Shown here piece after piece: positions 1-16,473 of a DNA stretch of 64,000 bases. Positions within the stretch are counted from its first letter, which is position 1. The number at the start of each line of letters is the position of its first letter. This DNA is from Mayamaea pseudoterrestris (lineage: Eukaryota), in NCBI GenBank assembly GCA_027923505.1, contig BROI01000010.1:186001-250000 (forward strand), given 5' to 3'. Both the position numbers and the translations under genes were made by a program. The notes under the pieces were generated by a model that saw only the letters and a program-made list of their open reading frames with translations, was not told the DNA's origin and ran no database searches.

Positions 1-269
1 AGCCCCCTCCTTAGACCACTCTGTAGTGGCTTCTTTCCCCTGGCGAATCCGGTCAGGAACTCAACGCTTCATCCTTGGCTCTTTGGTGTTAAGAATGCCA
101 AGCCTATGGCCGCACGAACGGACAAGCCAGGGAGGATCATTTACAAACTGTGGCTGCCCCACAGAGTGCACTGACGCGAAGATGTAAGCACTGCCGTTCC
201 CCCAGCGGTCTGAATTAAAAGAAGCGGGTCAGAGCCTTCCATATAAATTAGAAAGCTCCGCTTTCCTGC
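1..269. repeat. Split direct repeat B2 (partial)
   Basis: Matches 749-1019; the first ~210 nt are identical and a few mismatches/indels fall in the last ~60 nt. Confidence 0.95.
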
Positions 270-287
270 GGTGGGTGGGTGGGAAAT

Positions 288-530
288 TTAAACAAGTAAA
301 GCCTTTATGCTGCTCCCAAGAGAGATCTCTTTTGGTTCCTGGGTCGACAACGTTCGAGCCTTCCTTGCAACAACTGATCGTTTCTCGTCTCCTTGCAAAT
401 TGGATGGCCTCAATTGCCAATGCCATCAATTTGCTCCAGATTGCAAGTCCGTTGGTAATCGAGTGGTAGCCCTTTCAATCCGTCTGTCCAGTGTTCGTTC
501 CATACCAGCTTGGCTTGTGTGCTTGTCGTG
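288..530. repeat. Split direct repeat A2 (243 bp)
   Basis: Identical by eye to 13783-14025. Confidence 0.97.
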
Positions 531-748
531 GTACTTCAGCTCACTCTGTCTAGACTCCTTGATCGAACTACACTCTCATATCTCTAAAAGACGAAACGAC
601 TCCTCAATAACATATAACAAAGACCACTAGTGCTTTGGCACCTAGTTTGGGGTTAGGGTCACTTCCGGGTCCGCCTCGCATTTGAAGCGCCCAGTAGGAT
701 TCCACCTTGCGAACTCTTCGCCAGAGCCCGGCTGGGATTCCTACTGTG

Positions 749-1019
749 AGCCCCCTCCTTAGACCACTCTGTAGTGGCTTCTTTCCCCTGGCGAATCCGG
801 TCAGGAACTCAACGCTTCATCCTTGGCTCTTTGGTGTTAAGAATGCCAAGCCTATGGCCGCACGAACGGACAAGCCAGGGAGGATCATTTACAAACTGTG
901 GCTGCCCCACAGAGTGCACTGACGCGAAGATGTAAGCACTGCCGTTCCCCCAGCGGTCTGAATGAAAAGAAGCGGGTCAGAGACTTCCAATAATAAAATA
1001 GAAAGCTCCACTTTCCTGC
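749..1019. repeat. Split direct repeat B1 (visible part; probably extends to ~531)
   Basis: Matches 1-269. Confidence 0.93.
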
Positions 1020-1108
1020 CCCCCTCGGTCTCTGCATTCTCCTTTATCCGGTGTCGCTTGTGATCGTGTATGGTTCCCACAGCTTTGCGTTGTCAGTCAA
1101 AGCCGCTG

Positions 1109-2519
1109 CTACAACGACTCCGAATAAATCAAAAGGGTTTCAATGGAGGCGGCGACGTCGGAATAGTGTTCCATCATTCCAACTTTCACCTGCCTACCTT
1201 TCGCCCGTTCCACTTTCCTCCATCTGTTGCTCTGCAAATCACGCTTCCTTGGCTCCGCGTCGTCTGCTTGCGCTGTCGATCCTGCGCAAGTGGATCTTTC
1301 AACAGAGCCAAACTCCGTTACGTCTAACCGCCGAGCTTGTAACTTCAGGACACTGCGCCTGTACTTCCATCTTGGCTTTGAGTCTTGGAAAGTCAGGACA
1401 CATAGATCGCCTTGCCCTGCCGTACTTTCAGGCTCGAACACTGGCCCACGGACGATTCCTCGTTTACTCGCATGATCCGACAAAACGACAGACGCACATG
1501 CAGCCCGAACGAGTCTCCAGTGCCAGCGGCAACAGGTGGCATCGCTCGCCTCGCTCACCCTTCACGCGCCCCTGCAATGCAAGTGTAAAATGGCGGTGTC
1601 GAGGATGTGACAAGCTTTCATCAAGATGAGCCATTGTTCCTTCAAGCTCAATCTTGGGTACTTCTTCTCCTCGCAGTCCACCTGCGAACCCCGCGAGAAG
1701 AAACCCCGCCAGCAGACACACATCAAGCTTCTCACTGACACTCGCTCCTATCCAGTCTCGCTCAAGCAACTCCTGCAGCTTCAACATCATATCGATTGTC
1801 ACCGCTCGATCGGGCTGCACGTTGTCACCCATGCGCTTGTGACACCCTTCCAGAAAGCGCTTGAACCAGTAGGAGTGCGTCGGGCTGTCGCTAAAGTGCT
1901 GTGCTCCTTGCATTCCCGTAATGGTCGTCAGAGTCACACCATCGGGCTTTGTCAATGCCACGTTGGTGAAATGGGTTCGCAAACGCCGCATTGTTCCAAA
2001 CTGGATAGTATCTGAGTTCTTTCCTTCATCCAAGGATCTGTGGAGCAAAGTTACCGCTTGAAACATGCCCCAGGTATCTCGCACTGAATACGGTTGCTTG
2101 TCCGCCTGCTCGGGCTCGCTGATGAATCCAAACGTCTTCATTGCCTTGGCTATATGATTTCGTTCTCGCCAATTTGATTCCACAGTGGATCGTTCTCTCG
2201 ACCAGAATGCATCTAGGATTGCTCGCCGTACTGCGGTAAGCAGTTCTTGATCCTCTCTCCTTTCCACCATGGGTTCACTACTCCTCATATTCCGAAAGTG
2301 ACAAAGATCACACTGAAAAGGGCACAGTAGATGATCCCCGCGCCTAGCCACTTGGAATCTCGCCGCTTCCTTCAACTCCTCGTCCTCAAACCCTCCTTCT
2401 TCGCCTGGAGATCGCTGCCTGGGGTACTGATCCGTGTCACTTGCCTCGTAGCATTGGAAATGCCACAGACCCTTTCAATCCGGCCATTGCTTTCGCTTGT
2501 AGCCAAAATTTGCGCACCT
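1109..2519 (-). pseudogene. Tyrosine recombinase of the YR element (disrupted as assembled)
   Basis: Contains the CPFQCDLCHF motif, box I GGLRGEEV and LQGRVKGE. The C-terminal NRWRKVE...MMEHYSD (catalytic Tyr) is in another frame (1109-1558). There is an in-frame TGA at 2475-2477. Confidence 0.85.
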
Positions 2520-3410
2520 GAGCCCCTCGCTCACCTTCAGCTCCTTCCCACACACCTGACAAATTGCGTTCAGTGTCTCGTGCCAGGTCCATTCGTCGTA
2601 CCTGCCATGGACTTGCCGGAAGCAAAGGGCAAACAAGGGCTAGTGTTAGCGATTCAAACATCTCCTCTCTCCAGAAGCTCGCTCCGATGGGAATGGTAAA
2701 CATCACATCGCTCGCTTTCCGCATCTGCCTCCTCCACCGACTCGTCATTAAGCTCGGCACCACAATGCAATGGAATACGTGTGGCCTGGCGTGCCAAGCC
2801 TCGCACAGTTGCTCCAGAGCTACATCACTCAAGGCGGGAGCTGGGAACCAGAACATGGGGCGCGTCTCTGTGTGAGCGCAGTCGAACCAATCCGCTTCCT
2901 TGAGGAACAACGCGTTCCTTGGACACCAGCTGCGGATCCACCTTTCAAGCTCGGGAGAGCGTTCCAAAGGAGACAAGTGTATCGGAACGAAATCCAGCAT
3001 CGACTCGCCCACAAGGACTCCGTTAGCTAAATCTCCCCGCGAGAGACCATCTGTCCCTTGAGCAATCATTCGCTTGCCGGAGCACCAAATAACGTGAAGA
3101 AAGATCTTGCCAATCATCTCGAGTGTTCGCAAGCGCAGGACCAGTTCAAAGAGCACTTTGGCTTTGCTTGTACCCTTGTAGAAGGCACGCTCAGTCACGA
3201 AGTTGTCCGTGAAAAGGAAGAACTCTGTTCCGGGCTGAATGGTTCCATTGGAGAGCCCCGACTCGATCCTCACCACAAAGTTGTTCAACTCTCGAAAGTT
3301 AGATGACTCGTTGCTCACGCGCTCTTCCCACACACCGTAGACGTATTGGATTACTTCATAGTCTCCCTTGTTGTCTGCTTCAGAGATCCCAAAGCCGCTC
3401 CCGGATGCAA
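2437..3410 (-). CDS. DIRS-type RNase H and C-terminal region of ORF2 (frameshifted from RT)
   Basis: Motifs ASGSGFG, SSNFREL, FLFTDN and HVIWCSGKRMIAQGTDGLSRG. Confidence 0.8.
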
Positions 3411-3499
3411 CTCTGGCGCTCTGGCTGGGGCGGACGCTCGCTAGCGGTGGAGTCGCATGGTTCGTTCAAGCAAGGCTTCCACATCTTCCGCCAGCCTAG

Positions 3500-4473
3500 C
3501 TACCACTCGCACCGAGGAGCGCCGTCGTCCTCGCCCGCAGGAGCTTCCGCGGCCTCCTGCTGCTCTTCCACTCGCTTGCTTCCTCCGTGCCGCCAGCCCT
3601 CTTCATCTCGGTTTCCCCGCCAACTGTCAAGCGTGAGGTGGATGCCTTTGAGGTAAGGTACCAAGGATCGGTAGGTTTGTCCCACGTAAACCAAAAAGCC
3701 GCGGATGCGCTCCAATTGCTTGAACTCAATCGCCTTGGGATCCTGGCTTAGCTGCTCCTCGATCCACGCGATCGCCGCTCTCGTCTTGCCCCATCTCTCC
3801 ACTGACACCGACACAAAGACTCCTTCCTCTGTGGTTGAAACCACAGATCCCGACCATGCGCCAGGTGTTTGACTCGGCGGCCTTCTCTTGCGCGCTGCAT
3901 CTTGTAGGCCATACCAGGAGGCCAGCTTTGCGATCCTACTGCCGCCCTGCCAAGCAAGCTCTTCCGTTGGTGCTGTCGTTCGTGAGTCATCAACAAACAA
4001 GTGCATATCTACTGCCACTCGACCATCCTTTCGGCGCTTGGAGATCCATGGTTGCGCGGGGTCATAGGCGAGCATCCCCGGGACGTTCAGCTCAACACTG
4101 ACCCAGTGGAAAGCGTTGGAGTCCGCGGACGCTTCCGCGGATCCTCGCCCCAGTACCAACCCCTTGAATTGCAGTGCTCCTTGGACGGCTTGATAGGGTG
4201 AAGGCCCCAGTCCCATAGTGGGTCGCGTGAAATGCTCCCATATCCGCCCTCCCCTGATGCTTCGCTCATCTGGACAAAGGCCAGTCAGGTCGATCCCAGT
4301 GTAGGGCCGGAGCTCTTCGTGCAGCCAAAAGTTGTAGAACATCTCGCCAAAATCATTGTCCGCGCAATAGTATTGCGGTGCAACTGTTCGTACCATCTGA
4401 CTGACAGTGGGGAGCGCAAACCATGGAGCAAACAAAACCTCGTTCAATCCACTCGCTGTCGCATCGAAAACCA
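3500..4473 (-). CDS. Reverse transcriptase core of the YR element, part downstream of the copia insertion
   Basis: Motifs VFDATASGLN, DNDFGEMFYNF, MGLGPSPY, FVDD and YLKGIHLTLDSWR. Confidence 0.88.
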
Positions 4474-4868
4474 TGACAAGTCGCAGAGCGGCGAAGTCAA
4501 GAGCCCGAACCCTAATTAGCTTGTGTCGAGTCCGCAGCTGTCGTATGTGACATGTGAATGAAGAAAGTGCGCAACCGTCGTGTGGATGCGTTGTATGAAT
4601 GGAACGACCAGTTACGACTGATGTAATGTGATTGAAAGAAACGGATTGATCGGATGATCTTCCGAGTGGTCGATGTAGCGATGTAGCGATAAGCTCACAA
4701 TATAGAACTACTAGTTTGCGACGAGAGTGCAGTCGTATTCGTGTAGTGGCGAGCGCAAGACTATTCGACGAGCCATCTCCATCAAGAGCTGTACAGACCG
4801 TGGCCAAGGACCCTGTATCGGAGCTTTTTGGAGGTAAGACGTTGACTGCGAAATCGTCAACGGTGTTA
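4474..4868 (+). repeat. 5' LTR (395 bp)
   Basis: TGACA...TGTTA; differs from the 3' LTR by 2 substitutions and an 8-bp tandem duplication (cgatgtag). Confidence 0.95.
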
Positions 4869-4965
4869 GATTAACATTTCAGTGCTTTGAGAGCGAGAAC
4901 GAGCGAGGGAGCTATCGTGACACATTCGTCTGCAGCGAGTCCGATTCCTCTGATCAACCTCCACC

Positions 4966-6600
4966 ATGACGACGATTGATGTAACGACCTACAAGCGTGC
5001 CGTCGGTAAAGTCTTCGATATTCCGTGGCTCGCAGCGTCCGCAGCTTGGGACCCAAACGACCCTACCGCAGTATGCTTCGAATCTGAGGAACTCACGACT
5101 GCGGAGGCGATGGCCGAGTTGTCGGAACAAGACGTGACGAACATTAAGAACCAGTACCAGTGGTCGACGATACGAACAAGCCGATTGCGCAAGCTCATGA
5201 GTTGGATTCACGAGCAACGTCGGACGACTGCGCTGGAAGACTTGGAGAAAGACCAGATTACGAGCCGAGACCTCCCAGTAGCACCGGGGTCACCAACCGC
5301 AGGCAACCGCAGTTTTGGAGACTTCAGCGTTATTGGAGGCAACGACACCACGACGAAGCGACACGACATCAAGCTGGATCTGAAGACCATGCTGGAGCTC
5401 AAGAACGATCGCAAGTTCTGCTCCTACTGGCGGGCCTTCAAGAACCGCATGCGAAGCGAGCGACTTGTGCACTTTTGGGACGGCGGAGTTCAAGGCACCA
5501 GCTGCACTCGAGCCAGAATTCGCCGAGTATCAGTATCAGTGTTCGAAGCTTGCAGCGGCTCGAGTATACCTGCAAGACTCCATGAGCAAGCTCATTGTCC
5601 ATCAAGCACTCGACAGCGCGAATGCCTCAGCGTGCATTGCAGAGTTGGAGGCTGACATTCCTCGATGGGATGGCGCGCAAGTTGGATCACGTACGGCGAA
5701 GACGAAGCGTAAACAATTCACCCTCGACGCGGGTTCACGTAGTCTCCCGTCAATTGGCTTATCCAGTGGTCCAGCAAGGAAGAGAACTTACAATGACCAC
5801 GCGAGGAAACCGAGCTGGCCCCAGCAAGCACGGCGTCAGATTTTGGAACGCGCGGTTTTCCGCCACCATGCCGGATATGGCGCGGCGGTGAACATGGCGC
5901 TGATCGAAGAGTCCAAGACCGGCAACCCGATGGTGCACACCCAGTTTTGGAACTCCTGAACGACGACGTCACGCCTCAATCTGACAATCGTCGTGGCATC
6001 AAGGAGACCGGAAGCGTCAGGGAAGGCTACCAATCTGAGCAGACCAAGAAAGAGAAGGAGAAGACGAAGAAGGCAAGTGCGAACACTTTTCCCAGTCTAC
6101 GTAAGTAGCAGCAACAATCAGCAGTCCAATCAGGGGTGGTGGTCATGGGCGACTTGAGACGGCGAGGGGCGGCGGCTGGCCGCGGTGGGAGAATACTTTC
6201 GTTCGTATGTTCGCAGCTATGCCGACACGAAGACGATGTTCCCAGCACGTAGAATGCGACGACATTCCATCAAACACGTGGCGACTCCTTACCCGCGACC
6301 AGCAACGCCATGAAGTGTTTGAACGCCGTGGTACGAGTCTAGCGGCCAGTGCTGCAGGTGGTTTGGCATCAGCAACACAGGCAGGCACCACGCAGTGACG
6401 ACGGAGTACAACACGCAACGCTAACGTCGCAGCGATACTTCATCAGCGGAAACGCACGGCGCGAGTGCGGCGACGAACGTGTGAACAACACTAGCCGTGG
6501 CTCAGCGATCCGGAAGTTCAGGTCCCAGACCAGCCCGACTACGACTTCGGGAGCGAATATCGCTCAGAGTCGCAAGTACAAAGTCGCGAGCATTGACTTG
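4966..6600 (+). pseudogene. copia gag, frameshifted
   Basis: Chain of partial ORFs (4966-5655, 5465-5959, 6207-6398, 6349-6609) at the gag position after the 5' LTR. Confidence 0.65.
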
Positions 6601-6619
6601 GATTCATGATTCGCCGTCG

Positions 6620-6990
6620 TCACACAGCCGTACTACCAGAATCAAAACCCAGCCGAGCGCATCATCGGGCGCGTAAAGGAAAGTCATGAACGACTTATGG
6701 ACCGAACGGGCACTCCGGCATGCTTCTGGCTACGCGCTTTACTCTTTCAGACCGAGATGTACCGTCATTTGTCGCATCCTGCCTTGAACGGCAAGTCTCC
6801 CCATCGAGTTTATCACTGGGCAAGTCCCGACGCCGGTATTTGCATTTTCGTTGGTTTGAAATTGTCAACTACTTTGTCAAGGATGTCGAGGCCCGAAGAC
6901 CCGCCAGCGCCGGCGTACTGGCTTGGTCCCAACACGACGTCGGAGACGACCTGACGTACTTCATCTGCGATTGCGAGACACCGAGATCAT
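6620..6990 (+). pseudogene. copia integrase core C-terminal fragment
   Basis: Motifs QPYYQNQNPAER, LMDRTGTPACFW, LNGKSP and YWLGP...VGDDLTYFI across shifting frames. Confidence 0.75.
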
Positions 6991-7271
6991 GACGCGATTG
7001 GTTTTCTTACCCGAAAACGACCCAAAATTTTGAACCTTCGGCGTACCGGCACCTGCTTCCCCAGTCATGAAAGAAGGGAGCCGCGTCTCTACACCGTACC
7101 TGGTCTAGGTGGCGAGATCCTTATGCCGGGAAATGATCAAGAAGAGTTACAGCCCGACAGCAGAGACGATGATTCTTTCATTCCTGGCGAAGACGATACC
7201 CCTTTGGTCGAGACGGTGGAATACCCGGAAGACAACGATATGACGACGGGAGGAAGATCCGAATCCTGCCG

Positions 7272-9640
7272 ATGACGACGACGAAGCGAAGAAGAAGAAC
7301 ATCAATCCGTGGCGCAAACTCCCGATATGCACCCGATGAACTTATCGGCAAGTCGTTTCTCATGAAGGGGACTGACGGGCAAGAAGTTCGAGCGACCGTC
7401 ATGAGCAAGCTAAACAACCACGACGCCCAGAACCATCAGAACATTAAAATGATGCTGAAGCTTGGTAACGGCGAAGCGGACGAAGTCATGTCGTATGTCG
7501 AGGTTTCCGATCTCTACGAGGCCGAAGTGAACCAAGACATGGCGAATCCTGAGCGTAAATGGTTCTTCAAGGAGATTCTAGACCATCAGGGTCCGCTGAC
7601 GAGCAAGTCGAAGAACTGGAAGCATTCCAAGTGGAACGTCCTTGTACAATGGGACGATGGATCCAAGACTTGGGAGCCTCTCAACGCGATGATCGAAAGC
7701 GACAAAGTATCAGTGGCAGCCTACGCGCAAAAGCATAATCTTCTCGACAAGGACGGATGGACATCGTTGAATCGATGGGCCCGGAACGCCAAGAAGGTTG
7801 CGCGCAAGGTGGCGACCGCCCGAATGGAGCAGCAGAAGAACGGACCGCGCTACAAGTTTGGAGTCCAAGTACCCCGAGATTGGAAGGAAGCGCGGCGTTT
7901 GCAGGAAGCTGCAGGGCACACGAAGTGGACGGATGCGGAAGGCGTGGAGCTTGCGAACCTGGACGAGTACGAGACGTTTCAAGATCTTGGTCCGAGTTCC
8001 ACCACAACACCACCAACTGGTTACCAAAAGATCCGAGTCCATTTTGTGTACGATGTCAAGCACGATTTGCGATACAAGGCACGTCTCGTTGCAGGCGGCC
8101 ACATGACGAAAGACAACAACGATGCCTACTCCAGTGTTATCTCATTGAAGGCAATGCGTCTAGCTCTCGTCATTGGAGAAGCGAACGGCAAGAAGTGCAT
8201 GGTCGGTGACATTGGGAATGCTTATCTCGAAGCGTTCACCAAGGAGAAGGTATACTTCGTTGGAGGCCCCGAGTTCGGGGAGCGCGAAGGACATATACTG
8301 GTCATCGTCAAGGCTTTGTACGGATTGCGAACGAGCGGAGCACGATTTCACGAACGCTTAGCCGACGCCCTACTTGCGGAAGGGTGGAAGCCGTCCTATT
8401 GCGATTCCGATCTGTGGATCAAGGACGCCGGCGACAGCTACGACTACCTCTGTGTATGGGTCGACGATCTGTTAAATATTTCAGACGATCCAGCAGCGTT
8501 CTTCAAGATGCTAGAGGAGAAGTACAAGTTTAAGCTTAAAGGTGTTGGACATCCCGAGTATCATCTCGGCGGTGACTTTGGACGAGACCCTGACGGAACT
8601 CTTTACTGGTCGGCCAAGACCTACGTTGCGAAACTCTTGGCGCAGTACGAGCGTTTGTTTGAAGGTCCTCCGAAGAAGTACTCATCACCAATCGACAAAG
8701 ACGATCATCCAGAACTTGACCAAAGCGAGCTACTGAACGACCAAGAGAAGAAGATTTACCAGTCTCTAGTCGGAGCACTTCAGTGGGCAATTACTTTGGG
8801 TCGATTTGACATTGCCGTAGCAGTTGTGAGTCTGTCGCGATTCCGTGTGGAGCCGCGCAAGGGACACCTGCAGCGGGTGAAGCGAGTCTGTGGATATTTG
8901 CGAGAATTACCGGACGCAGCAATCCGTTTCCGTACGAAGTGGCCAGCCAACGAGGAGCACTTCGGCACCATGGAGGAACAAGATTGGGAGCGCAGCGTTT
9001 TGGGAAGGACGGAGTTGATGAGATGTTGGACGTCTACCCACCGCCAAAGGGTGTGACTGTACGAACATCAACTTTCGAGGATGCGTGTCTCATGCATTGC
9101 ATGGTGACAGGCAAGTCATTGGAAGGAGTTTTGTCATTTGTCAACCAGACGCCTGTCGACTGGCATTGCAAACTCCAGGCTACAGTCGAGACTGCGACCT
9201 TCGGATCGGAATTCGGCGTAGCAAAGAGTGGAACAGATATCAGCATTTCTCTACGCGCGTCGCTCATGGCTATGGGCGTACCATTGGAGAGGTCTGCCTG
9301 GATGTACGGAGACAACCAAGCAGTGATTACACAATCTACAATCCCGAGTTCGACATTGTCCAAGCGACACAATGCGTTGGCCTACCATCGTGTTCGTTGG
9401 GCAGTTGCTGCGGGAATTATCAAGTTTGTGAAGATTGACGGAAAGGAGAACATTGCAGACGTACTGACGAAGTACCTGCCGTACTGTGATGCGATGCCAT
9501 TGCTCAAGCCAGTATTGTTTTGGCGCGGCGATACATCGTATGCGATTGTGAAGGACAAGAATGCGGCTACGACGAGCAGCGTACCCGAGGGGAGTGACAA
9601 GTCGCAGAGCGGCAAAGTCAAGAGCCCGAACCCTAATTAG
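7272..9640 (+). CDS. copia pol: chromo-like segment, RT (RVT_2) and RNase H; one frameshift near 9000
   Basis: Motifs YKARLVAGGH, DIGNAYL, KALYGLRTSG and WVDD. The RNase H motifs TVETATFGSEF, GDNQAV and ENIADVLTK are in frame 8939-9640, and the stop lies inside the 3' LTR. Confidence 0.92.
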
Positions 9641-9981
9641 CTTGTGTCAAGTCCGCAGCTGTCGTATGTGACATGTGAATGAAGAAAGTGCGCAACCGTC
9701 GTGTGGATGCGTTGTATGAATGGAACGACCAGTTACGACTGATGTAATGTGATTGAAAGAAACGGATTGATCGGATGATCTTCCGAGTGGTCGATGTAGC
9801 GATAAGCTCACAATATAGAACTACTAGTTTGCGACGAGAGTGCAGTCGTATTCGTGTAGTGGCGAGCGCAAGACTATTCGACGAGCCATCTCCATCAAGA
9901 GCTGTACAGACCGTGGCCAAGGACCCTGTATCGGAGCTTTTTGGAGGTAAGACGTTGACTGCGAAATCGTCAACGGTGTTA
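9595..9981 (+). repeat. 3' LTR (387 bp)
   Basis: Matches 4474-4868 and is directly preceded by the PPT. Confidence 0.95.
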
Positions 9982-11496
9982 AACCAATCGGATGTCGGAC
10001 TCTCCTTTAGAAACGGGAAACATGTTGATCAACGAGCGCACTTCTCCCACCGCGATGTACTTTCTGGCCCGGAGCTTGTTCACTTTGGCGACAACCAGGG
10101 CCAACTCCTCCGCATCCTTTGGTACTCGCTGAGGTTTCTTGTTGGCTGGTGGTTTATCGATAAACCTCGGCGGCAGGCCATCACGGATCGTCTTCTGAAA
10201 GGCTGCCGGCCAGCGCCAGAAGAAAGGAGCGGACCCGCCTTTCCACTCCCACCAATCGGATTTGAGAGCGTGTCCAATGGCGGCTAATCCTGCCGAGATT
10301 GCTTGGCGAGGAACGAAGCGGCCCGCTGTCCGCTCGACGCACACCCACCTCCAGAAGCTTCGTGACAGATTTCGCACCCATCGCGCGTGCAGTCTCCCTC
10401 TGAATCGCTCCAACACCTGGTCTATTCGCTTTACCTCCTCCTCGCTCGCTCCCTTGTCTAGCAAGTGCAGTCGCTCATTCCAAAGCCAGCGTGGCACTTC
10501 CGCGTCGTCCGCCTTCGTCGCTTTGGCGTCTCGACCCGCGTTCTCCTCATGCTTGGACTTCAACCCGGGCTGCGAGTCGCCTGCTTGCTCTTTAATGACG
10601 CTTCTCGCAGGCTCGCCAGTCGCCAACGCATCGCTGAAGTCAGTCAAGACGCTGAGCGCGTGCACTCGAATCTTGAAGGGCAATCGCACTTCCTCCACAA
10701 GGCGCTCAACCAGCCGAGGGGGACACGACTTCGTGATGGTCGCAGGCAAGTCCCACACCAGATTTACCTCCTTTGAACTGAGTTTTCTTCGGACGAAGCC
10801 TGTGCGAGAGAATACCGATGGTACCACGTAGCGGTCTCCCAGTTGGCGAAGGTCTACCAATACGTCTTCCGCGTTCGTTGGAGGGGAGCAGGGCACGCCG
10901 TTTGCCGTCTTGTCAATAATGGAAGCCAAGTACATGCGCACACCAACCTCCTGAGGAAGTTTGGCAAGTGGGGCGTCGCTCCTTGTCGCCAAGTGGACGA
11001 CGAACTCGCCGTTGGTGACGCCTCCCAACTCGGAGTGCCTAATAAGATGACTCGTCCTAATCCAACCTAGGGGTACATTGCCACGAGAGTAGGAACCAAA
11101 CCAGATAACTAATTCCACTCCCGGGAGCTTCCATACCGCATGCGAAGCTCCAGGTCTTATGTTATCAAAGCACACGACATCCGCCTCCTGCTGTCTCGCT
11201 AGCCAATCCTCCAGGCGCTCTGCTCTATCCCACCACTTCACCTGCGCCAGCTCCATTCCTCCAAACGCGTCCTCGCGCCCACCTTCAACTCCTGCTATCC
11301 ACACCACCTCCGCTCCGCCTGAGCCGGCCACCCATCCCCAGAAAGGAAAAGTCTTGCAAACTATTCCCATTCGCCGCCGACCTCTTGCTAGTCGGCGCGT
11401 TACGCCTTCCACATACTCCGCCACACCTTGTCGCGCCTCGACTCCCTTCCGCCGCCGCCCCTCGCCAGAGCGGGAGGCAACCGACGGCTCGCGCCG
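9982..11496 (-). CDS. YR element ORF2 5' part (methyltransferase-like region plus RT N-terminus), interrupted by copia
   Basis: Open from the ORF1 stop to the insertion. Contains KATKADDAEVP, WWEWKGGSAPFFWRWP and FPVSKGESDIRLV, and rejoins FDATASGLN in frame when the copia and one TSD copy are removed. Confidence 0.88.
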
Positions 11497-11507
11497 TCAG
11501 TTGCCCC
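11474..11507 (-). promoter_or_regulatory. RNA hairpin containing the ORF1 UGA stop (candidate readthrough signal)
   Basis: GGGGCAACUGACGGC-GCGA-GCCGUCGGUUGCCUC forms a 15-bp stem with two G-U pairs and a GNRA loop. Confidence 0.7.
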
Positions 11508-13713
11508 GAGCTTGTCCTCTCTCAGCCAGCTTCTTGGCCTCGTTGGCTGTCTTGACAGCAAACTGACAGTCCTTCTCCAGCTTCTGCGTCGCTTCCGCAA
11601 ACTTGACGACGCTCACCCGGTTTTCAATGAGGTGAATCGTCATGACGCTTGACACCGACGGGTGGTTGCGGAAATCCTTCTCCAAGTAACCCTGGGCGAT
11701 CTGATGCGACTGCATCATACTCCACAAGTAACACGCCACATGGTTTGAGCGTTCATCTTCGTCGGCCTCATAGTTGACCAGCGCTGCCTCGGCCCGCACC
11801 TTGTGAAAGTCGGTCCACATTTGGTGAATCATTCCTGCCAACAATTCCCAGCTTTCCTTGTTCTCTCCCATCTCGCTCATGAAGTTGAGCTTGAACGTGA
11901 AGAACTGCGTAAGGCACGAGTCGGCTTTGGCGAGCATCTCTTGGGCGAGACGCTTTGCTCCTCCTGACATATCTGACGAGCGGATGTGTCCATTGAGGGC
12001 CTTGGTGGTCTGGCTGATGCGCTCAGTCAATCTGATACGCTTTGACATGATGCGCTGCGACGTCCCGTTCCAAGCTTCCCATGAGGTTAGACCAGGAAGG
12101 AGATGCTTGTGGCTTCCCAGCGCGCTCTGCTCTTTCTCCGTCCCGCCGTAGACGAGCGGAAGGGGCAGATTGAGTGACGCGATGATCGTGGCTTGGAAGC
12201 TGCTAGCGAAACCAGCTTTCTTGGCGTTGGCCACATTCCCAAGCACTGACGTTGGGTCGGCGTTGCTGGCGTAGGCCAGTTGCAACAGGGAGAAGGGGTC
12301 GATGAGAAGAGTCATGTGCTTGGCCGCAATCTTGAGGGCGTCGACCACTTCGAGCGTCTTGAGCAGGGACGCGTAAGTGATGTTGTCGAACACGACTTGG
12401 GTGCTTGATCCTGCTTCTTCACAATGCTCCACGCGAGCCTTCAATGACGCGAGTTCGTCAAGCGCGCTTCCTCCAGCGGCCGATCCAATGCCAGCGTCGA
12501 GCAGCTCTCTCACGTCGCCCATGATCTTGGAGGTTGCGGCGTTGACTGCAGCTGAGACTTGGGCTGAAATCGACATTCCGCTCGCCAAAGCTGCGGCTGG
12601 CGATGGCCCAACGCGCAGCTGCTCCTTAACGTACTCGCCACACATGTTGAGCGTTTCCATGACTCCTCCATCCTGCAGCAGAAGGATTACCTGCTCGCCA
12701 ATGGACTGCTTCGCCGCGTTGGACGCGAAGGGCTGCGTCTCAAACTTCGACTGCGCTTGCTTGAGCGAGTCGATTTCCTTTTGCATGGCCATCATGCGCT
12801 CTTCATCACGGATTCCTGTCGCGGATTGGCGACCAACCATAGTCCACAAGCTGGCTTCTACATCGTCACTGCGCGAACCGACTAAGCGCTCCAAGCGCGT
12901 GACCCTGACGTCGAATCCGTCGAGCTCATCGTCAATCGCAACCTTGTTGAGACGCACTTGCTTGGCTTGGTCTTGCGCCGCCTCCTGGAGTTGTCGAACT
13001 CCTTCGGCGAGGATAGGGACAGCTTGTTCGACTTTGCTCTTTAGCGTTGCGTCCGAAACCTTGCCCGTCGGAAAGGTCACACTGGCGACGTCAACCCAAT
13101 CGCTTGGCGAGTCGGAGTCTTCCATCTTCAATGGGCTTCGGCGAGCTGCACGTGGCGTGGCCATCGCAAACTGGGCAGAGGCGATCGCTGCGCTCATCAC
13201 TTGATCGCTTTGACTATGAGGATCCCGCAATGCGGTGAAGAACATCTGCCAGTCGACGACAGAGCGCTGGGTGGAGAGCATGGTGGCCCGGGCTTCTGGT
13301 CCGATGTCTTCGACACGGACCCACTGGGTGGTGAAGGCGGTGGGGGAGGAGCCTGTAGGAGAGGTGATGAAAAGGCAGGCGGTGTCACTGTCTTCAAAGC
13401 GAAACTTGTTCTTCTCATGGGCTTTCACGACGCAAGTGTCCGTCGCGCAACAGAAACGAGTATCACCCACACGGCCGCCGCACACGCCTTCCGCCAATCC
13501 ATCTTGGTTCAACCAAACTTCAATCAAACTGACTCCACTCGCCGAGGGAGACACAACCCCCCCGGATCCTTTTTGCTTACCTTGTCGCGCCGACTCCGAC
13601 AGGTCCTCGGCATCACGAGAAAACTGGGACTCGAGGATGCGCTGAGTCGAGCCCGCCGCAGGAGGGGCGGCCATGAGCGCCTTGAGCTTGTCAACGGCGC
13701 TGGGAGACGACAT
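11497..13713 (-). CDS. YR element ORF1 (gag-like, 738 aa)
   Basis: Intact ATG-started ORF just after repeat A1, with an N-terminal Cys/His cluster and coiled-coil-like segments. Confidence 0.85.
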   Translation of the reverse strand: MSSPSAVDKLKALMAAPPAAGSTQRILESQFSRDAEDLSESARQGKQKGSGGVVSPSASGVSLIEVWLNQDGLAEGVCGGRVGDTRFCCATDTCVVKAHEKNKFRFEDSDTACLFITSPTGSSPTAFTTQWVRVEDIGPEARATMLSTQRSVVDWQMFFTALRDPHSQSDQVMSAAIASAQFAMATPRAARRSPLKMEDSDSPSDWVDVASVTFPTGKVSDATLKSKVEQAVPILAEGVRQLQEAAQDQAKQVRLNKVAIDDELDGFDVRVTRLERLVGSRSDDVEASLWTMVGRQSATGIRDEERMMAMQKEIDSLKQAQSKFETQPFASNAAKQSIGEQVILLLQDGGVMETLNMCGEYVKEQLRVGPSPAAALASGMSISAQVSAAVNAATSKIMGDVRELLDAGIGSAAGGSALDELASLKARVEHCEEAGSSTQVVFDNITYASLLKTLEVVDALKIAAKHMTLLIDPFSLLQLAYASNADPTSVLGNVANAKKAGFASSFQATIIASLNLPLPLVYGGTEKEQSALGSHKHLLPGLTSWEAWNGTSQRIMSKRIRLTERISQTTKALNGHIRSSDMSGGAKRLAQEMLAKADSCLTQFFTFKLNFMSEMGENKESWELLAGMIHQMWTDFHKVRAEAALVNYEADEDERSNHVACYLWSMMQSHQIAQGYLEKDFRNHPSVSSVMTIHLIENRVSVVKFAEATQKLEKDCQFAVKTANEAKKLAERGQARGN

Positions 13714-13782
13714 GATGGAAAAGCGGAGCTGTAACGTACGGCGGGTACAATCACACGGACGACAGGAAGCCTGCTGGTAGTG

Positions 13783-14025
13783 TTAAACAAGTAAAGCCTT
13801 TATGCTGCTCCCAAGAGAGATCTCTTTTGGTTCCTGGGTCGACAACGTTCGAGCCTTCCTTGCAACAACTGATCGTTTCTCGTCTCCTTGCAAATTGGAT
13901 GGCCTCAATTGCCAATGCCATCAATTTGCTCCAGATTGCAAGTCCGTTGGTAATCGAGTGGTAGCCCTTTCAATCCGTCTGTCCAGTGTTCGTTCCATAC
14001 CAGCTTGGCTTGTGTGCTTGTCGTG
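13783..14025. repeat. Split direct repeat A1 (element 5' end)
   Basis: Identical to 288-530. Confidence 0.97.
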
Positions 14026-14185
14026 TGTGGAGTAAAATAATGAGTCGGCGCGCACGTGCTCGACGTTCACTTAAGAACCATTGCTATCGGATCGCTACCT
14101 GGGACGATAGCAAATGGCAGCTCTATGCTGCCTAGAGGCTAAAATCAATATCCAATTTCTAATATTTATATGAGTGATTATAAAG

Positions 14186-15898
14186 TCATATTGCCGTGGT
14201 GGCCCCAACAAAGTACCGCTGCGCCGTTGTATGTATCAGACTCGTCGACCAAAAGGGACTTTCAGTTTCGGTTGCATCCTCTTCAGTGATGCTTGTTTCA
14301 TTTGTTGTTGTTTTGATTTCATGTTCGTTGACGCTCGTCCCAATAGCTACTTTGCGCCATTGCTCGCTCATCGCTCGCTGCTCCGCCCGCAGCGCGAGCG
14401 CATTCCCCAGCGACCATTCCGCCTCTTTGCCGTCCACCAAGTAGGTAAAGGTAATTTCGCGACTCGATGAGTCAAACCCAAAGCCATCCTTCAATAGCGT
14501 CACCAAATAAACACTCTCCAGGCACCGGTGCGGCAGTATATCGGCGCGCGTGTATTGATGCGCGTCATGCTGCACCAGTTCCAAGTCGTTGGTCCAAGAC
14601 CGACTGCACAATCCGTCCAATGCGTCGGCAAGCTCCTGCATGGACGGGTTTGGCCACGACTCGTTCAATATAGCATGCGCCTGCAAATTGTTGGTGGCCA
14701 ATTCGCGCAAACAGTCTAATGCGAAAAAGTATAGCGACATGGCCAAGAACTTGTTGCCGCGTACCGGCGGATGCGGAATGCCACCAACATGCGTGCCAAG
14801 CAAGTCGAACCGATCCGTTTCGTCGGCGTGGGAAACGAGTCGACGAACCTGCTTGACGCACGCGTTTGCGTTTCCAGTTCCAACGAGCGTGTAGTTTCGA
14901 TGCACTTGGCGATGATTCACAAAGGCGCATGGATTGTCGATTGTAAAGGTAGATGATTGCGACACTGCTGCTACTATTTCACGTTCATGCTCATGAATCC
15001 ACGTGTCAAAGAGCCGCTCCCGAAACTGGTCCACGCCGTAGCCAAGGTACGAGGTGGCAAAAAAGTCGTTGGCGTGAAACTGCGCAGCCGGCGGTTCGTC
15101 GTCATCACCAACAGCACTGTCATCTTGTTGCATCGGCAGAAAGACAATCTGCGTCGAGCTCCCACCCATGTCGAGCGCCCCAATCGGTCGTTGGCTGCTG
15201 TAAACATGATGGGCGTCTCGTTGATGTTGCTTGGTTTGTCGAACAAACTCTAAATGCACATTCATGCTGCCCTCCAAATAATTGGCCGCCAACAATCCGT
15301 AGTAGCCTTCAAGTTTACCGGATAGTGTTGAAATGGTGAAGCGCCTAAAGGGATTCTGTTGCGATGCGTCGAGTCCTTGCACCATACGTTCGTAGACCAT
15401 TTGCTGCTCGCGAACAGAATACAGTCGCATGCCGGCCGTGGCTTGGTACAAGACTGGTGTGGATGCGTGAAACTGAGGTGAAATAATGCTTGCCGCATAT
15501 TGGAGACAAGGCAGTATGTGATTTGCCAGTGCCGCCGATGCGTTTGAAACTGTTGCATCATCATGATCATTGTTTTCATTTTCGTGAGCCGCAAAGTCCG
15601 ACAGTGCCTCCGTGGTGCGCATGGTGCCGCGACACGCGACGGTTTCCATGTCGTCATCGTTACTGACAAACTCGAAAATATGCAAACGACTTCCCGTCGA
15701 GCCGCCGTCAATGACAATGATAAAAGGAGAATGCTGATGATTGTCGTTGGAGGGAGATTTCGTGACAGTTGTTGCATTGTGACTCACGGACTGCACCGAT
15801 GCAGTTGCATGCAACGCTTTGACATTGCGCAGTAGAAAGAGTAGACACTGCAGCATCTGCAGCAGCAGTAGGCATCGACTTGTAGTGGTAGTCATCAT
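14186..15898 (-). CDS. GDA1/CD39 family apyrase (NTPDase) with signal peptide
   Basis: Apyrase conserved regions DGGSTGSR, ATAGMR, EGYYG, DMGGSSTQ and WSLG; hydrophobic N-terminus. Confidence 0.93.
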   Translation of the reverse strand: MMTTTTSRCLLLLQMLQCLLFLLRNVKALHATASVQSVSHNATTVTKSPSNDNHQHSPFIIVIDGGSTGSRLHIFEFVSNDDDMETVACRGTMRTTEALSDFAAHENENNDHDDATVSNASAALANHILPCLQYAASIISPQFHASTPVLYQATAGMRLYSVREQQMVYERMVQGLDASQQNPFRRFTISTLSGKLEGYYGLLAANYLEGSMNVHLEFVRQTKQHQRDAHHVYSSQRPIGALDMGGSSTQIVFLPMQQDDSAVGDDDEPPAAQFHANDFFATSYLGYGVDQFRERLFDTWIHEHEREIVAAVSQSSTFTIDNPCAFVNHRQVHRNYTLVGTGNANACVKQVRRLVSHADETDRFDLLGTHVGGIPHPPVRGNKFLAMSLYFFALDCLRELATNNLQAHAILNESWPNPSMQELADALDGLCSRSWTNDLELVQHDAHQYTRADILPHRCLESVYLVTLLKDGFGFDSSSREITFTYLVDGKEAEWSLGNALALRAEQRAMSEQWRKVAIGTSVNEHEIKTTTNETSITEEDATETESPFWSTSLIHTTAQRYFVGATTAI

Positions 15899-16473
15899 GT
15901 CGGCCAGCAATGACTACTGTATTGATTGACTGAAACGAATCTCTTGTTCAGCAGCGAGGACGAATCTGTGACAAAGCTTGGGAGTCGAATGGAACGAGCT
16001 GGTAGATGAAGCTCTCTCCTTCGTCCTTGATGACAAATAGTCACAACTCTCTATCTCTCTCGAGACTTCCTTTCTCTTGGGGAATCGCAAAACTTGATGG
16101 CTGCAAGTGATGCTCGAGAGACGTGAACTATCAGTCGAATGCGTTCCAAGTGTGATGTTGTGGACCAGCGCATCGGCCATTAAAATTTTGCAACGGCCTC
16201 CTTGGAATTCTGAGTGACGTGGCATTGTGACGTCACACAATTCGTCCGGCGTTCCGTCACATTTTCATTCACACATGGAACAAACGTGGAACGTGCGGCC
16301 TTCCGCTCTTCCCGCTTACAGTACCTCGAGTCACAGCATCTTCATCTTCGAGTCACAGGCGTGGGTCGACTCCACAATGACCGCGTGACGCGCCCGTGCC
16401 AAGCATTCCGCGAGAAGAATCAAATCGTGCTTTTGAACTTGTGATAAAAAATGGCAGCCGATTTACGATACTA

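What the first reader, a model, noticed from the sequence alone, without database searches (positions are those of the whole stretch)
11474..11507. Gag-pol junction of a YR retrotransposon is a single UGA-CGG buried in a 15-bp GNRA hairpin: candidate stop-codon readthrough
Seen: ORF1 ends at TGA 11499-11497 and the same frame stays open through the RT. The stop lies in the 5' arm of GGGGCAACUGACGGC-GCGA-GCCGUCGGUUGCCUC. Both imperfect pairs are G-U wobbles, and the loop is GNRA, only on the coding strand, which argues for an RNA-level structure. Known: UGA-CGG plus a 3' structure is a readthrough context in alphaviruses and tobraviruses, whereas DIRS-order elements are usually described with separate or overlapping ORFs. 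Inference: a Gag-Pol fusion is made by recoding. I know of no such report for these elements but cannot check this.
Basis: partly seen in the sequence, partly recalled or inferred. Interest (0 to 1): 0.85.

Follow-up and report, generated by a model that had tools for sequence, protein, structure and literature searches.

The report
Leaky UGA joins transposon gag and pol
A dead copy of a recombinase-type retrotransposon keeps its capsid-like and polymerase genes in one reading frame split by a single UGA stop, and distant relatives do the same, so the polymerase is probably made when ribosomes occasionally read through that stop.

Summary
On the minus strand, ORF1 (738 codons) ends at TGA 11499-11497 and the same frame runs on. 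The stop sits in the 5' arm of a 15-bp GCGA-loop hairpin, the longest perfect stem in the window.

The readthrough reading is supported by comparison, not by experiment. In 80 metagenome loci carrying relatives, 34 gag-pol junctions could be read:
- gag and pol share a frame in 29 of 34 (25 of 30 non-redundant).
- The gag stop is TGA in 30 of 34.
- The next base is C in 20 of those 30. Other ORF ends in the same loci are TGA-C in 8 of 48.
- In 14 junctions the frame stays open for more than 1000 codons after the stop.
- Conserved residues lie between the stop and the first ATG.

The hairpin's role is not supported. Relatives show no structure around the stop, and a stop inside the stem does not match known 3' stimulators.

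Other points:
- The window copy is dead: a nested Copia, and frameshifts in pol and the recombinase gene.
- The part of pol just after the stop has a cytosine-methyltransferase fold.
- I found no report of readthrough in these elements, but key reviews were not available.

The parts
13783..14025 (-). A1 terminal repeat (5' end of the element)
   Evidence: 100% identical over 243 bp to 288-530 in direct orientation.
11500..13713 (-). ORF1, gag-like, 738 codons
   Evidence: Open frame from ATG 13713. No Pfam family. Homologues end at the same place (P0023, P0083, P0034, P0120). tblastn matches upstream of pol in 33 metagenome loci.
11497..11499 (-). In-frame UGA stop of ORF1, followed by CGG
   Evidence: Relatives have TGA in 30 of 34 junctions, followed by C in 20 of those 30.
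11474..11507 (-). 15-bp hairpin with GCGA loop; the stop lies in its 5' arm
   Evidence: It is the longest stem in the window. Both imperfect pairs are G-U only on the coding strand.
11371..11496 (-). 42 codons between the UGA and the first in-frame ATG, with no ATG inside; includes the conserved motif AEYVEGV (11404-11424)
   Evidence: The motif aligns with (D/E)YAKYG(V/M) and Y(T/A)L(R/S)G of relatives, which in many of them also precedes the first ATG.
9982..11496 (-). First 505 codons of pol: a cytosine-methyltransferase-fold domain (about residues 41-295, 10612-11376), a helical region, and the start of the RT (…DIRLV)
   Evidence: AlphaFold model with pLDDT about 90 over residues 41-295. 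Foldseek top hits are M.HhaI, DNMT2 and DNMT3, E 1.5e-7 and upward, probability 1.00. 1446 HMMER relatives.
4474..9981 (+). Nested Ty1/Copia element that interrupts the RT
   Evidence: LTRs 4474-4868 and 9595-9981 are 97.5% identical. Target-site duplication AACCA at 4469-4473 and 9982-9986. Pfam RVT_2, E 5e-21.
3503..4468 (-). Rest of the RT, in frame with 9982-11496 once the Copia and one duplication copy are removed
   Evidence: Codon arithmetic, and the translation (…VFDATASGLNE…MGLGPSPY…LFVDDSR…). Aligns with P0014 and P0015. No Pfam hit.
2440..3465 (-). C-terminal part of pol (RNase H expected from position), frame-shifted against the RT in this copy
   Evidence: By eye it shares SNFRE…, FTDN…KGTS and AQGTDGLSRGD with P0015, where RT and this part form one ORF. 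The RNase H fold was not tested.
1109..2474 (-). Remains of ORF3, the tyrosine-recombinase-like gene, with a frameshift near 1560 and a degraded active-site box
   Evidence: Aligns with intact 506-527-codon ORF3s of relatives. The window has STCAG where relatives have SFRRG.
749..1019 (-). B1 repeat
   Evidence: 97.4% identical to 1-269.
288..530 (-). A2 repeat
   Evidence: Identical to A1.
1..269 (-). B2 repeat, possibly cut by the window edge

Best explanation
The window holds a dead copy of a retrotransposon with split direct repeats (A1-genes-B1-A2-B2) on the minus strand, spanning about 14025 to 1. Its layout is gag-like ORF1, then UGA, then pol in the same frame (methyltransferase-fold domain, RT, C-terminal part), then an overlapping recombinase-like ORF3.

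In active members of this clade, most ribosomes would stop at the UGA and make Gag alone. A small share would decode UGA-C with a near-cognate tRNA and continue, giving a Gag-Pol fusion. That would set the Gag:Pol ratio, as in gammaretroviruses.

Shown here: the anatomy, and the conservation of the frame, of the stop codon and of the C after it.
Inferred: that ribosomes actually read through, how often, and which residue is inserted (Trp, Cys or Arg by analogy, recalled from the literature).

The 15-bp hairpin around the stop is real but specific to this lineage. I do not think it is needed for readthrough, and its function is open.
For: 1. Frame. gag and pol matches are in the same frame in 29 of 34 junctions found in 33 of the 80 metagenome loci. 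After collapsing near-duplicates this is 25 of 30, binomial p 2.4e-8 against one third.
2. Stop codon. TGA occurs in 30 of 34 junctions (26 of 30 non-redundant), against 24 of 48 other long-ORF ends in the same loci (Fisher p 0.0014). TGA-C occurs in 17 of 30 non-redundant junctions against 8 of 48 (p 0.0004).
3. Intact copies. In 14 junctions the frame stays open for 1003-1372 codons after the stop. In 9 of these gag is also open for 723-808 codons, so a frame of about 2000 codons is broken only at the junction.
4. Depth. These lineages share a median of 26% identity (range 20-46%) over the first 450 pol codons.
5. Coding sequence before the first ATG. A conserved motif lies between the stop and the first in-frame ATG in the window and in L007, L022, L031, L038, L041, L059, L024/L027 and L036. 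L001 has no ATG in 110 codons. The window's ATG is not conserved at that alignment position in the relatives I read.
6. UGA is a true stop in these genomes. It ends 9 of 12 intact pol ORFs and 10 of 21 long ORFs elsewhere in the window.
7. UGA-C, UGA-CGG and UGA-CUA are established leaky contexts (PMC3159437, abstract and passages).
Against: - There is no RNA, ribosome or peptide evidence.
- The host copy is dead, so it cannot be tested as it stands.
- 5 of 34 junctions have pol in another frame (L010, L013, L014, L069, L070).
- 9 of the 29 same-frame junctions have two or three stops rather than one (L011, L012, L024, L027, L028, L030, L036, L060, L061). Four junctions use TAG or TAA.
- Hosts of the metagenome loci are unknown, and 47 of the 80 loci had no readable junction.
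- Some control stops are premature stops of decayed copies.
- In Tca2 of Candida albicans an in-frame gag-UGA-pol junction did not by itself direct readthrough in a yeast reporter (PMC2194720, abstract). An in-frame stop therefore does not prove simple readthrough.
- No conserved 3' structure was found.
Confidence: 0.68

Rival explanations
1. The stop really terminates translation, and Pol is made another way: from its own start (the ATG at about 11370 or a non-AUG codon), by termination-reinitiation, or from an internal promoter or subgenomic RNA in the junction, as proposed for Tca2.
For: The source annotation calls ORF2 from the ATG (P0002, 463 aa). The confidently folded domain starts at residue 41, next to Met43. 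The Tca2 precedent applies (PMC2194720, abstract). 9 of the 29 same-frame junctions carry more than one stop.
Against: None of these routes needs gag and pol in the same frame, yet 25 of 30 non-redundant junctions share it. They also do not predict the UGA-C bias. The ATG is not conserved at that position, and conserved residues lie upstream of the first ATG in many lineages; L001 has no ATG in 110 codons.
Confidence: 0.17
2. The hairpin is the functional core of the site and stimulates readthrough. For example, once the ribosome has melted it and holds the UGA in the A site, the freed 3' arm could refold with the GC-rich sequence downstream into a stem starting at about +12.
For: The hairpin is highly non-random and sits exactly on the stop. 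Both wobble pairs are G-U only on the sense strand. With the 5' arm held single-stranded, the 3' arm pairs with downstream sequence from +12. That spacing is similar to the 7-12 nt spacers of known stimulators (PMC3159437, passages).
Against: The downstream refold is no better than shuffles (z -0.29 to -0.95). Relatives show no excess structure, and their stops are no more often paired than control codons. No covariation data exist. A diverged paralogous contig does not align across 11425-11519. Known stimulators lie 3' of the stop.
Confidence: 0.15
3. The TGA is a nonsense mutation of this decayed copy, and the ancestor had a single gag-pol ORF.
For: The copy is dead: it has a nested Copia, an RT to C-terminal frame break, a recombinase frameshift and a degraded active-site box.
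Against: The stop is at the homologous place in 30 non-redundant junctions from lineages about 26% identical. Gag homologues in the protein library end there. No fused form was seen among the 150 best HMMER hits, apart from P0132, which runs 34 low-complexity residues further.
Confidence: 0.03
4. UGA is recoded in another way, as selenocysteine or by RNA editing to UGG within the double-stranded stem.
For: A stable hairpin at a UGA recalls the stem-loops next to some selenocysteine codons (PMC3159437, discussion passage), and the amber/W editing site of hepatitis delta virus (recalled from memory).
Against: Rfam found no SECIS or any other family in 1-14200 at E up to 1. The hairpin is not conserved while the UGA is. 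I know of no ADAR in these hosts (recalled, not tested).
Confidence: 0.02

Closest known systems
Gammaretrovirus (MuLV) gag-UAG-pol readthrough
   Same: gag and pol are in one frame, split by a single stop, and a Gag-Pol fusion is made by occasional suppression (PMC4178896, abstract in the listing; PMC3159437 introduction).
   Different: [quoted passage not shown] This clade uses mostly UGA-C and no conserved structure was detected. The element is a recombinase-type retrotransposon without protease or DDE integrase hits.
Type II readthrough sites of alphaviruses and tobra-, furo- and pomoviruses (UGA-CGG or UGA-CUA with an extended 3' stem-loop)
   Same: The stop and the next triplet are the same in the window (UGA-CGG). 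C at +4 dominates in the clade.
   Different: In those viruses the stem begins 7-12 nt after the stop and is supported by covariation (PMC3159437, passages). Here the stop is inside the stem, and the stem is not conserved.
Tca2 (Ty1/copia) of Candida albicans: gag-UGA-pol
   Same: A retrotransposon with an in-frame UGA between gag and pol; Pol is translated from the gag-pol RNA (PMC2194720, abstract).
   Different: In Tca2 the flanking sequence alone did not direct readthrough in yeast, so the mechanism is called non-canonical. The element class is different.
DIRS-order elements with split direct repeats (Ngaro, PAT-like; SymbioDIRS-Dnmt3 of Symbiodinium)
   Same: A-coding-B-A-B repeats; a divergent RT that Pfam misses; a cytosine-methyltransferase domain in the Pol ORF; the recombinase in a separate ORF (PMC5890265, passages; PMC8547959, passages).
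   Different: The passages and term searches I ran in those papers mention neither a gag in frame with pol nor readthrough. The window's methyltransferase-like domain gets no Pfam hit. I did not see their supplementary figures.

Membership tests
DIRS-order (tyrosine-recombinase) retrotransposon, split-direct-repeat type | Terminal arrangement A1-[ORFs]-B1-A2-B2 | tested here: met
   A: 13783-14025 equals 288-530 (100%). B: 749-1019 equals 1-269 (97.4%). All are direct repeats.
DIRS-order (tyrosine-recombinase) retrotransposon, split-direct-repeat type | Encodes a reverse transcriptase | tested here: inconclusive
   No Pfam hit even at E 10 for the window or relatives, and no PDB sequence hit. 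RT-like boxes are seen by eye (…MGLxxSPY…, F/Y-x-DD). The nearest ESM Atlas cluster has RVT_1 on 46% of members.
DIRS-order (tyrosine-recombinase) retrotransposon, split-direct-repeat type | Encodes a tyrosine recombinase | tested here: inconclusive
   No Pfam hit. Relatives' ORF3 carries R…K…SFRRG…NRWRK…Y boxes by eye. The model is poor (mean pLDDT 48). Its nine best Foldseek hits are all Cre-family recombinase chains (eight Cre, one Tre), with E only 0.04-0.1 and probability 0.89-0.97.
DIRS-order (tyrosine-recombinase) retrotransposon, split-direct-repeat type | No aspartic protease or DDE integrase | tested here: met
   No such Pfam family in any ORF of the element or of relatives. This is weak evidence, since Pfam sees nothing at all in them.
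Programmed stop-codon readthrough site | A single in-frame stop between two conserved coding regions | tested here: met
   Window. Relatives: exactly one stop in 20 of 29 same-frame junctions.
Programmed stop-codon readthrough site | Stop and frame conserved across diverged relatives | tested here: met
   Same frame in 25 of 30 and TGA in 26 of 30 non-redundant junctions. The lineages are about 26% identical.
Programmed stop-codon readthrough site | Leaky context (UGA followed by C) | tested here: met
   17 of 30 junctions against 8 of 48 control stops, p 0.0004. The window has UGA-CGG.
Programmed stop-codon readthrough site | Protein-level conservation directly 3' of the stop, without a start codon | tested here: met
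   A conserved motif precedes the first ATG in the window and in at least 8 lineages. No synonymous-site analysis was possible at this divergence.
Programmed stop-codon readthrough site | Conserved 3' stimulatory RNA structure after a 7-12 nt spacer | tested here: not met
   Mean z -0.28 over 31 junctions, with 4 of 31 below -2. Stops are no more often paired than controls. The window hairpin has no spacer. Not every readthrough class requires this feature.
Programmed stop-codon readthrough site | An extended protein is actually produced | not testable with these tools
   No RNA holder was listed. No proteomic or ribosome data are available.
C5 cytosine DNA methyltransferase (as in SymbioDIRS-Dnmt3 Pol) | Methyltransferase fold | tested here: met
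   Foldseek hits M.HhaI, DNMT2, DNMT3A/B and M.HaeIII with E 1.5e-7 to 1e-4 and probability 1.00. The model has pLDDT about 90 over residues 41-295.
C5 cytosine DNA methyltransferase (as in SymbioDIRS-Dnmt3 Pol) | Sequence signature (Pfam PF00145; catalytic Pro-Cys box) | tested here: not met
   No Pfam hit. By eye, the place where I expect the Pro-Cys box reads …HPVW… in relatives and …SHAVW… in the window. The box assignment is recalled from memory and was not aligned to a reference.
Selenocysteine recoding | SECIS element on the transcript | tested here: not met
   No Rfam family in 1-14200 at E up to 1, except two chance SCARNA7 rows inside the Copia LTRs.

The most novel reading that the evidence does not exclude
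A whole, deeply branching clade of recombinase-type retrotransposons of aquatic protists sets its Gag:Pol ratio by UGA-C readthrough, the first recoding signal assigned to this order. Some members chain two or three in-frame UGAs, or insert a whole extra ORF between two UGAs. In the window's lineage, a 15-bp hairpin that contains the stop acts as a ribosome-triggered switch: melting it frees the 3' arm, which refolds at the mRNA entrance into a stimulator. That would be a new geometry for readthrough control.
Probability: 0.1. Interest if true: 0.8.

Novelty: new member of a known kind. Interest (0 to 1): 0.58.

Why it matters
How recombinase-type (DIRS-order) retrotransposons express Pol is essentially undescribed. 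The overviews I could search speak only of separate or overlapping ORFs.

A conserved in-frame UGA-C gives a concrete model that a reporter can test. It says gene callers systematically split one Gag-Pol unit into two 'genes', as the source annotation did here. It also provides dozens of natural, highly diverged UGA-C contexts from protists for studying readthrough.

The methyltransferase-fold domain would be the first Pol-frame domain translated after the stop. This links the clade to the methylase-carrying DIRS elements of dinoflagellates.

Tried and rejected
- Whole genome: none is held for this window, so no within-genome census of copies was possible.
- Sequencing runs: 6 holders were listed, none on record as RNA. 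Contigs of X1, X2 and X3 carry a near-identical copy with no variant in the hairpin. X6 covered only 4 of 30 bins. A roughly 79%-identical paralogous contig (X2, record 6) aligns on both sides but not across 11425-11519, and I could not fetch it. No covariation test was therefore possible.
- Word-based protein search with a junction-spanning query returned only the window's own two proteins.
- The viral-contig scan found nothing. The first alignment was too loose for the scan, so I used a tighter one.
- Pfam gave nothing for gag, pol or ORF3 of the window or relatives. The PDB sequence search gave nothing.
- Rfam gave nothing relevant.
- The ORF3 model was poor, so its recombinase hits are only a hint.
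- Earlier-findings look-ups by place and by sequence were empty.
- Literature: readthrough was not found by term search in PMC3266345, PMC6681497, PMC3783388, PMC8547959, PMC5890265 or the 2026 bioRxiv preprint on adenine methylases. Searches gave no paper linking these elements to readthrough. Goodwin & Poulter 2004 and Poulter & Butler 2015 are not held, so an earlier mention cannot be excluded.
- Rejected: chance hairpin; copy-specific nonsense mutation; selenocysteine.

Full report
**Observation**

The element lies on the minus strand. ORF1 runs from ATG 13713 to TGA 11499-11497 (738 codons), and the next triplet is CGG. The same frame stays open for 505 more codons, to 9982.

The stop sits in the 5' arm of a hairpin at 11507-11474. 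The hairpin has 15 pairs, two of them G-U, and a GCGA loop. It is the minimum-energy fold of the region (-52.2 kcal/mol for 101 nt, z -2.81; z -3.1), and the hairpin alone is -29.4 kcal/mol. It is the longest perfect stem on either strand of the 64-kb window, and twenty block shuffles gave a mean of 0.1 stems of 15 bp or more.

**Anatomy of the element**

- Self-comparison shows direct repeats: A (13783-14025 = 288-530, 100% identical) and B (749-1019 = 1-269, 97.4% identical). This gives the A1-genes-B1-A2-B2 layout of split-direct-repeat recombinase retrotransposons.
- The RT is interrupted by a Ty1/Copia element on the plus strand (4474-9981). Its LTRs are 97.5% identical, its target-site duplication is AACCA, and it has a Pfam RVT_2 hit.
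- With the Copia and one duplication copy removed, the pol frame is continuous from 11496 to 3503, 827 codons.
- The next pol part (2440-3465) is in another frame here, although relatives have one ORF.
- ORF3 has a frameshift, and its SFRRG box reads STCAG.
- This copy is therefore dead. Contigs of three sequencing runs carry a near-identical copy with no variant in the hairpin. A roughly 79%-identical paralogue aligns on both sides of the junction but not across 11425-11519.

**What the proteins are**

Pfam recognises nothing in gag, pol or ORF3, either in the window or in relatives.

A full HMMER scan with the read-through product found 1446 relatives at E below 0.001. Gag homologues end where ORF1 ends. 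Pol homologues begin just after that point.

The first 505 pol residues were modelled at mean pLDDT 73.6, and about 90 over residues 41-295. That domain has the fold of C5 cytosine DNA methyltransferases: M.HhaI, DNMT2 and DNMT3, with E from 1.5e-7 and probability 1.00.

The ESM Atlas places a relative's pol next to clusters carrying RVT_1, DNA_methylase and Dam families. This fits the methylase-bearing DIRS-like elements of Symbiodinium. Their RT is reported as too divergent for Pfam, and they also have A-coding-B-A-B repeats (PMC5890265, passages).

ORF3 of relatives has recombinase-like boxes by eye. The nine best Foldseek hits of its poor model (mean pLDDT 48) are all Cre-family recombinase chains, eight Cre and one Tre, at E 0.04-0.1. 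This is only a hint.

**The comparative test**

A metagenome scan with an alignment of the pol N-terminal region returned 80 loci. tblastn with the window's ORF1 and ORF2 and five gag homologues found 34 gag-pol junctions in 33 loci. The other 47 loci had no gag match upstream, mostly because the contigs are short.

| Measure | Junctions | Control or note |
|---|---|---|
| gag and pol in same frame | 29 of 34 | exceptions L010, L013, L014, L069, L070 |
| Same frame, non-redundant | 25 of 30 | p 2.4e-8 against one third |
| gag stop is TGA | 30 of 34 (TAG 3, TAA 1) | |
| C after TGA | 20 of 30 | |
| TGA, non-redundant | 26 of 30 | 24 of 48 other long-ORF ends, p 0.0014 |
| TGA-C, non-redundant | 17 of 30 | 8 of 48 other long-ORF ends, p 0.0004 |

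In 14 junctions the frame stays open for 1003-1372 codons after the stop. In 9 of those, gag is also open for 723-808 codons. The lineages share a median of 26% identity over the first 450 pol codons.

Exactly one stop separates gag from the pol domain in 20 of the 29 same-frame junctions. The rest are:
- L011 and L012, which hold an extra in-frame ORF of about 323 codons between two TGAs;
- L024, L027 and L036, which have three closely spaced in-frame TGAs;
- L028, L030, L060 and L061, which have a second stop.

**Coding sequence between the stop and the first ATG**

The window has 42 codons without an ATG after the UGA. They include AEYVEGV, which aligns with the (D/E)YAKYG(V/M) and Y(T/A)L(R/S)G motif of relatives.

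That motif precedes the first in-frame ATG in L007, L022, L031, L038, L041, L059, L024/L027 and L036. L001 has no ATG in 110 codons.

The window's Met43 is not conserved. By eye, the same alignment position is C, I, V or Y in most relatives.

UGA is a true stop in these genomes. It ends 9 of 12 intact pol ORFs and 10 of 21 long ORFs elsewhere in the window.

**The hairpin**

Folding -20 to +70 around 31 distinct junctions gave a mean z of -0.28, with 4 of 31 below -2. The stop is fully paired in 8 of 31 junctions, against 219 of 620 control codons. There is no clade-wide structure.

Known stimulators begin 7-12 nt after the stop (PMC3159437, passages). Here the ribosome must have melted the stem by the time the UGA is decoded. 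This is an inference from ribosome footprint geometry, recalled from memory.

With the 5' arm held single-stranded, the 3' arm can pair with GC-rich sequence from about +12. That fold is no better than shuffles.

The hairpin is real and specific to the sense strand, but its function is open. It could be a lineage-specific modulator, a signal for another step, or a by-product of a palindrome-forming mutation.

**Mechanism and rivals**

- Best reading, about 0.68: leaky decoding of UGA-C gives a Gag-Pol fusion, as in gammaretroviruses.
- Main rival, about 0.17: separate initiation, reinitiation or an internal promoter. The Tca2 work shows that an in-frame gag-UGA-pol need not mean simple readthrough (PMC2194720, abstract). 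None of these routes, however, explains the conserved shared frame or the UGA-C bias.
- A copy-specific nonsense mutation is contradicted by the comparison.
- Selenocysteine lacks a SECIS.

**Novelty**

Stop-codon readthrough for Gag-Pol is a known mechanism. I found no report of it in recoding or overview papers on recombinase-type retrotransposons that I could search (searches; term look-ups). Two key reviews are not held, and I did not see supplements.

I treat it as a lead and did not test it.

**Verdict**

- The readthrough reading is well supported by comparison.
- The hairpin's role is not supported.
- This is a new member of a known kind, of moderate interest.

Noticed in passing
window 4474-9981 (+): A complete-looking Ty1/Copia element is nested in the RT of the recombinase element. 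Its LTRs are 395 bp and 97.5% identical, its target-site duplication is AACCA, and it has a Pfam RVT_2 hit. The host element is therefore older than this insertion.
   Followed up: partly
window 10612-11376 (-): The first folded domain of pol has a C5 cytosine-methyltransferase fold but no Pfam signature. The place where a Pro-Cys catalytic box is expected reads HPVW or SHAVW. It may be an inactive or re-purposed methylase domain.
   Followed up: partly
L011:1748-2720 and L012:3959-4931: Two related loci carry an extra ORF of about 323 codons between gag and pol. It is in the same frame and bounded by a single TGA on each side, giving three in-frame ORFs in a row.
   Followed up: no
L024:1422-1480, L027:2565-2625, L036:1647-1735: One sublineage has three in-frame TGAs within about 20-30 codons after gag. 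They are at matching places in L024 and L027, which differ elsewhere. This could be tandem leaky stops, an intron, or shared decay.
   Followed up: no
L022:9215-10744, L026:5996-7576, L059:9509-11026 and others: ORF3 (506-527 codons, recombinase-like, with an N-terminal Cys-rich region and a conserved FQCDLCHFRN box) overlaps the end of pol in another frame. The pol stop is TGA-T in 7 of 12 intact copies.
   Followed up: partly
window about 13400-13480 (-), and P0034, P0083, P0120: Gag-like proteins share an N-terminal Cys…Cys…Cys-x-V-x2-H-x2-K pattern by eye (window: CGGRVGDTRFCCATDTCVVKAHEKNK). It may be a zinc-binding motif.
   Followed up: no
window 13762-14025: In contigs of runs X2 and X3, summed depth over the A repeat is about 6 times that of the element's interior. 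Depth from contigs is unreliable, but this would fit further copies or solo repeats in those genomes.
   Followed up: no
window 14186-15913 (-): A GDA1/CD39 nucleoside phosphatase gene (Pfam E 2.8e-56) lies about 160 bp beyond the A1 repeat (14025), on the 5' side of the element, and is on the same strand.
   Followed up: no
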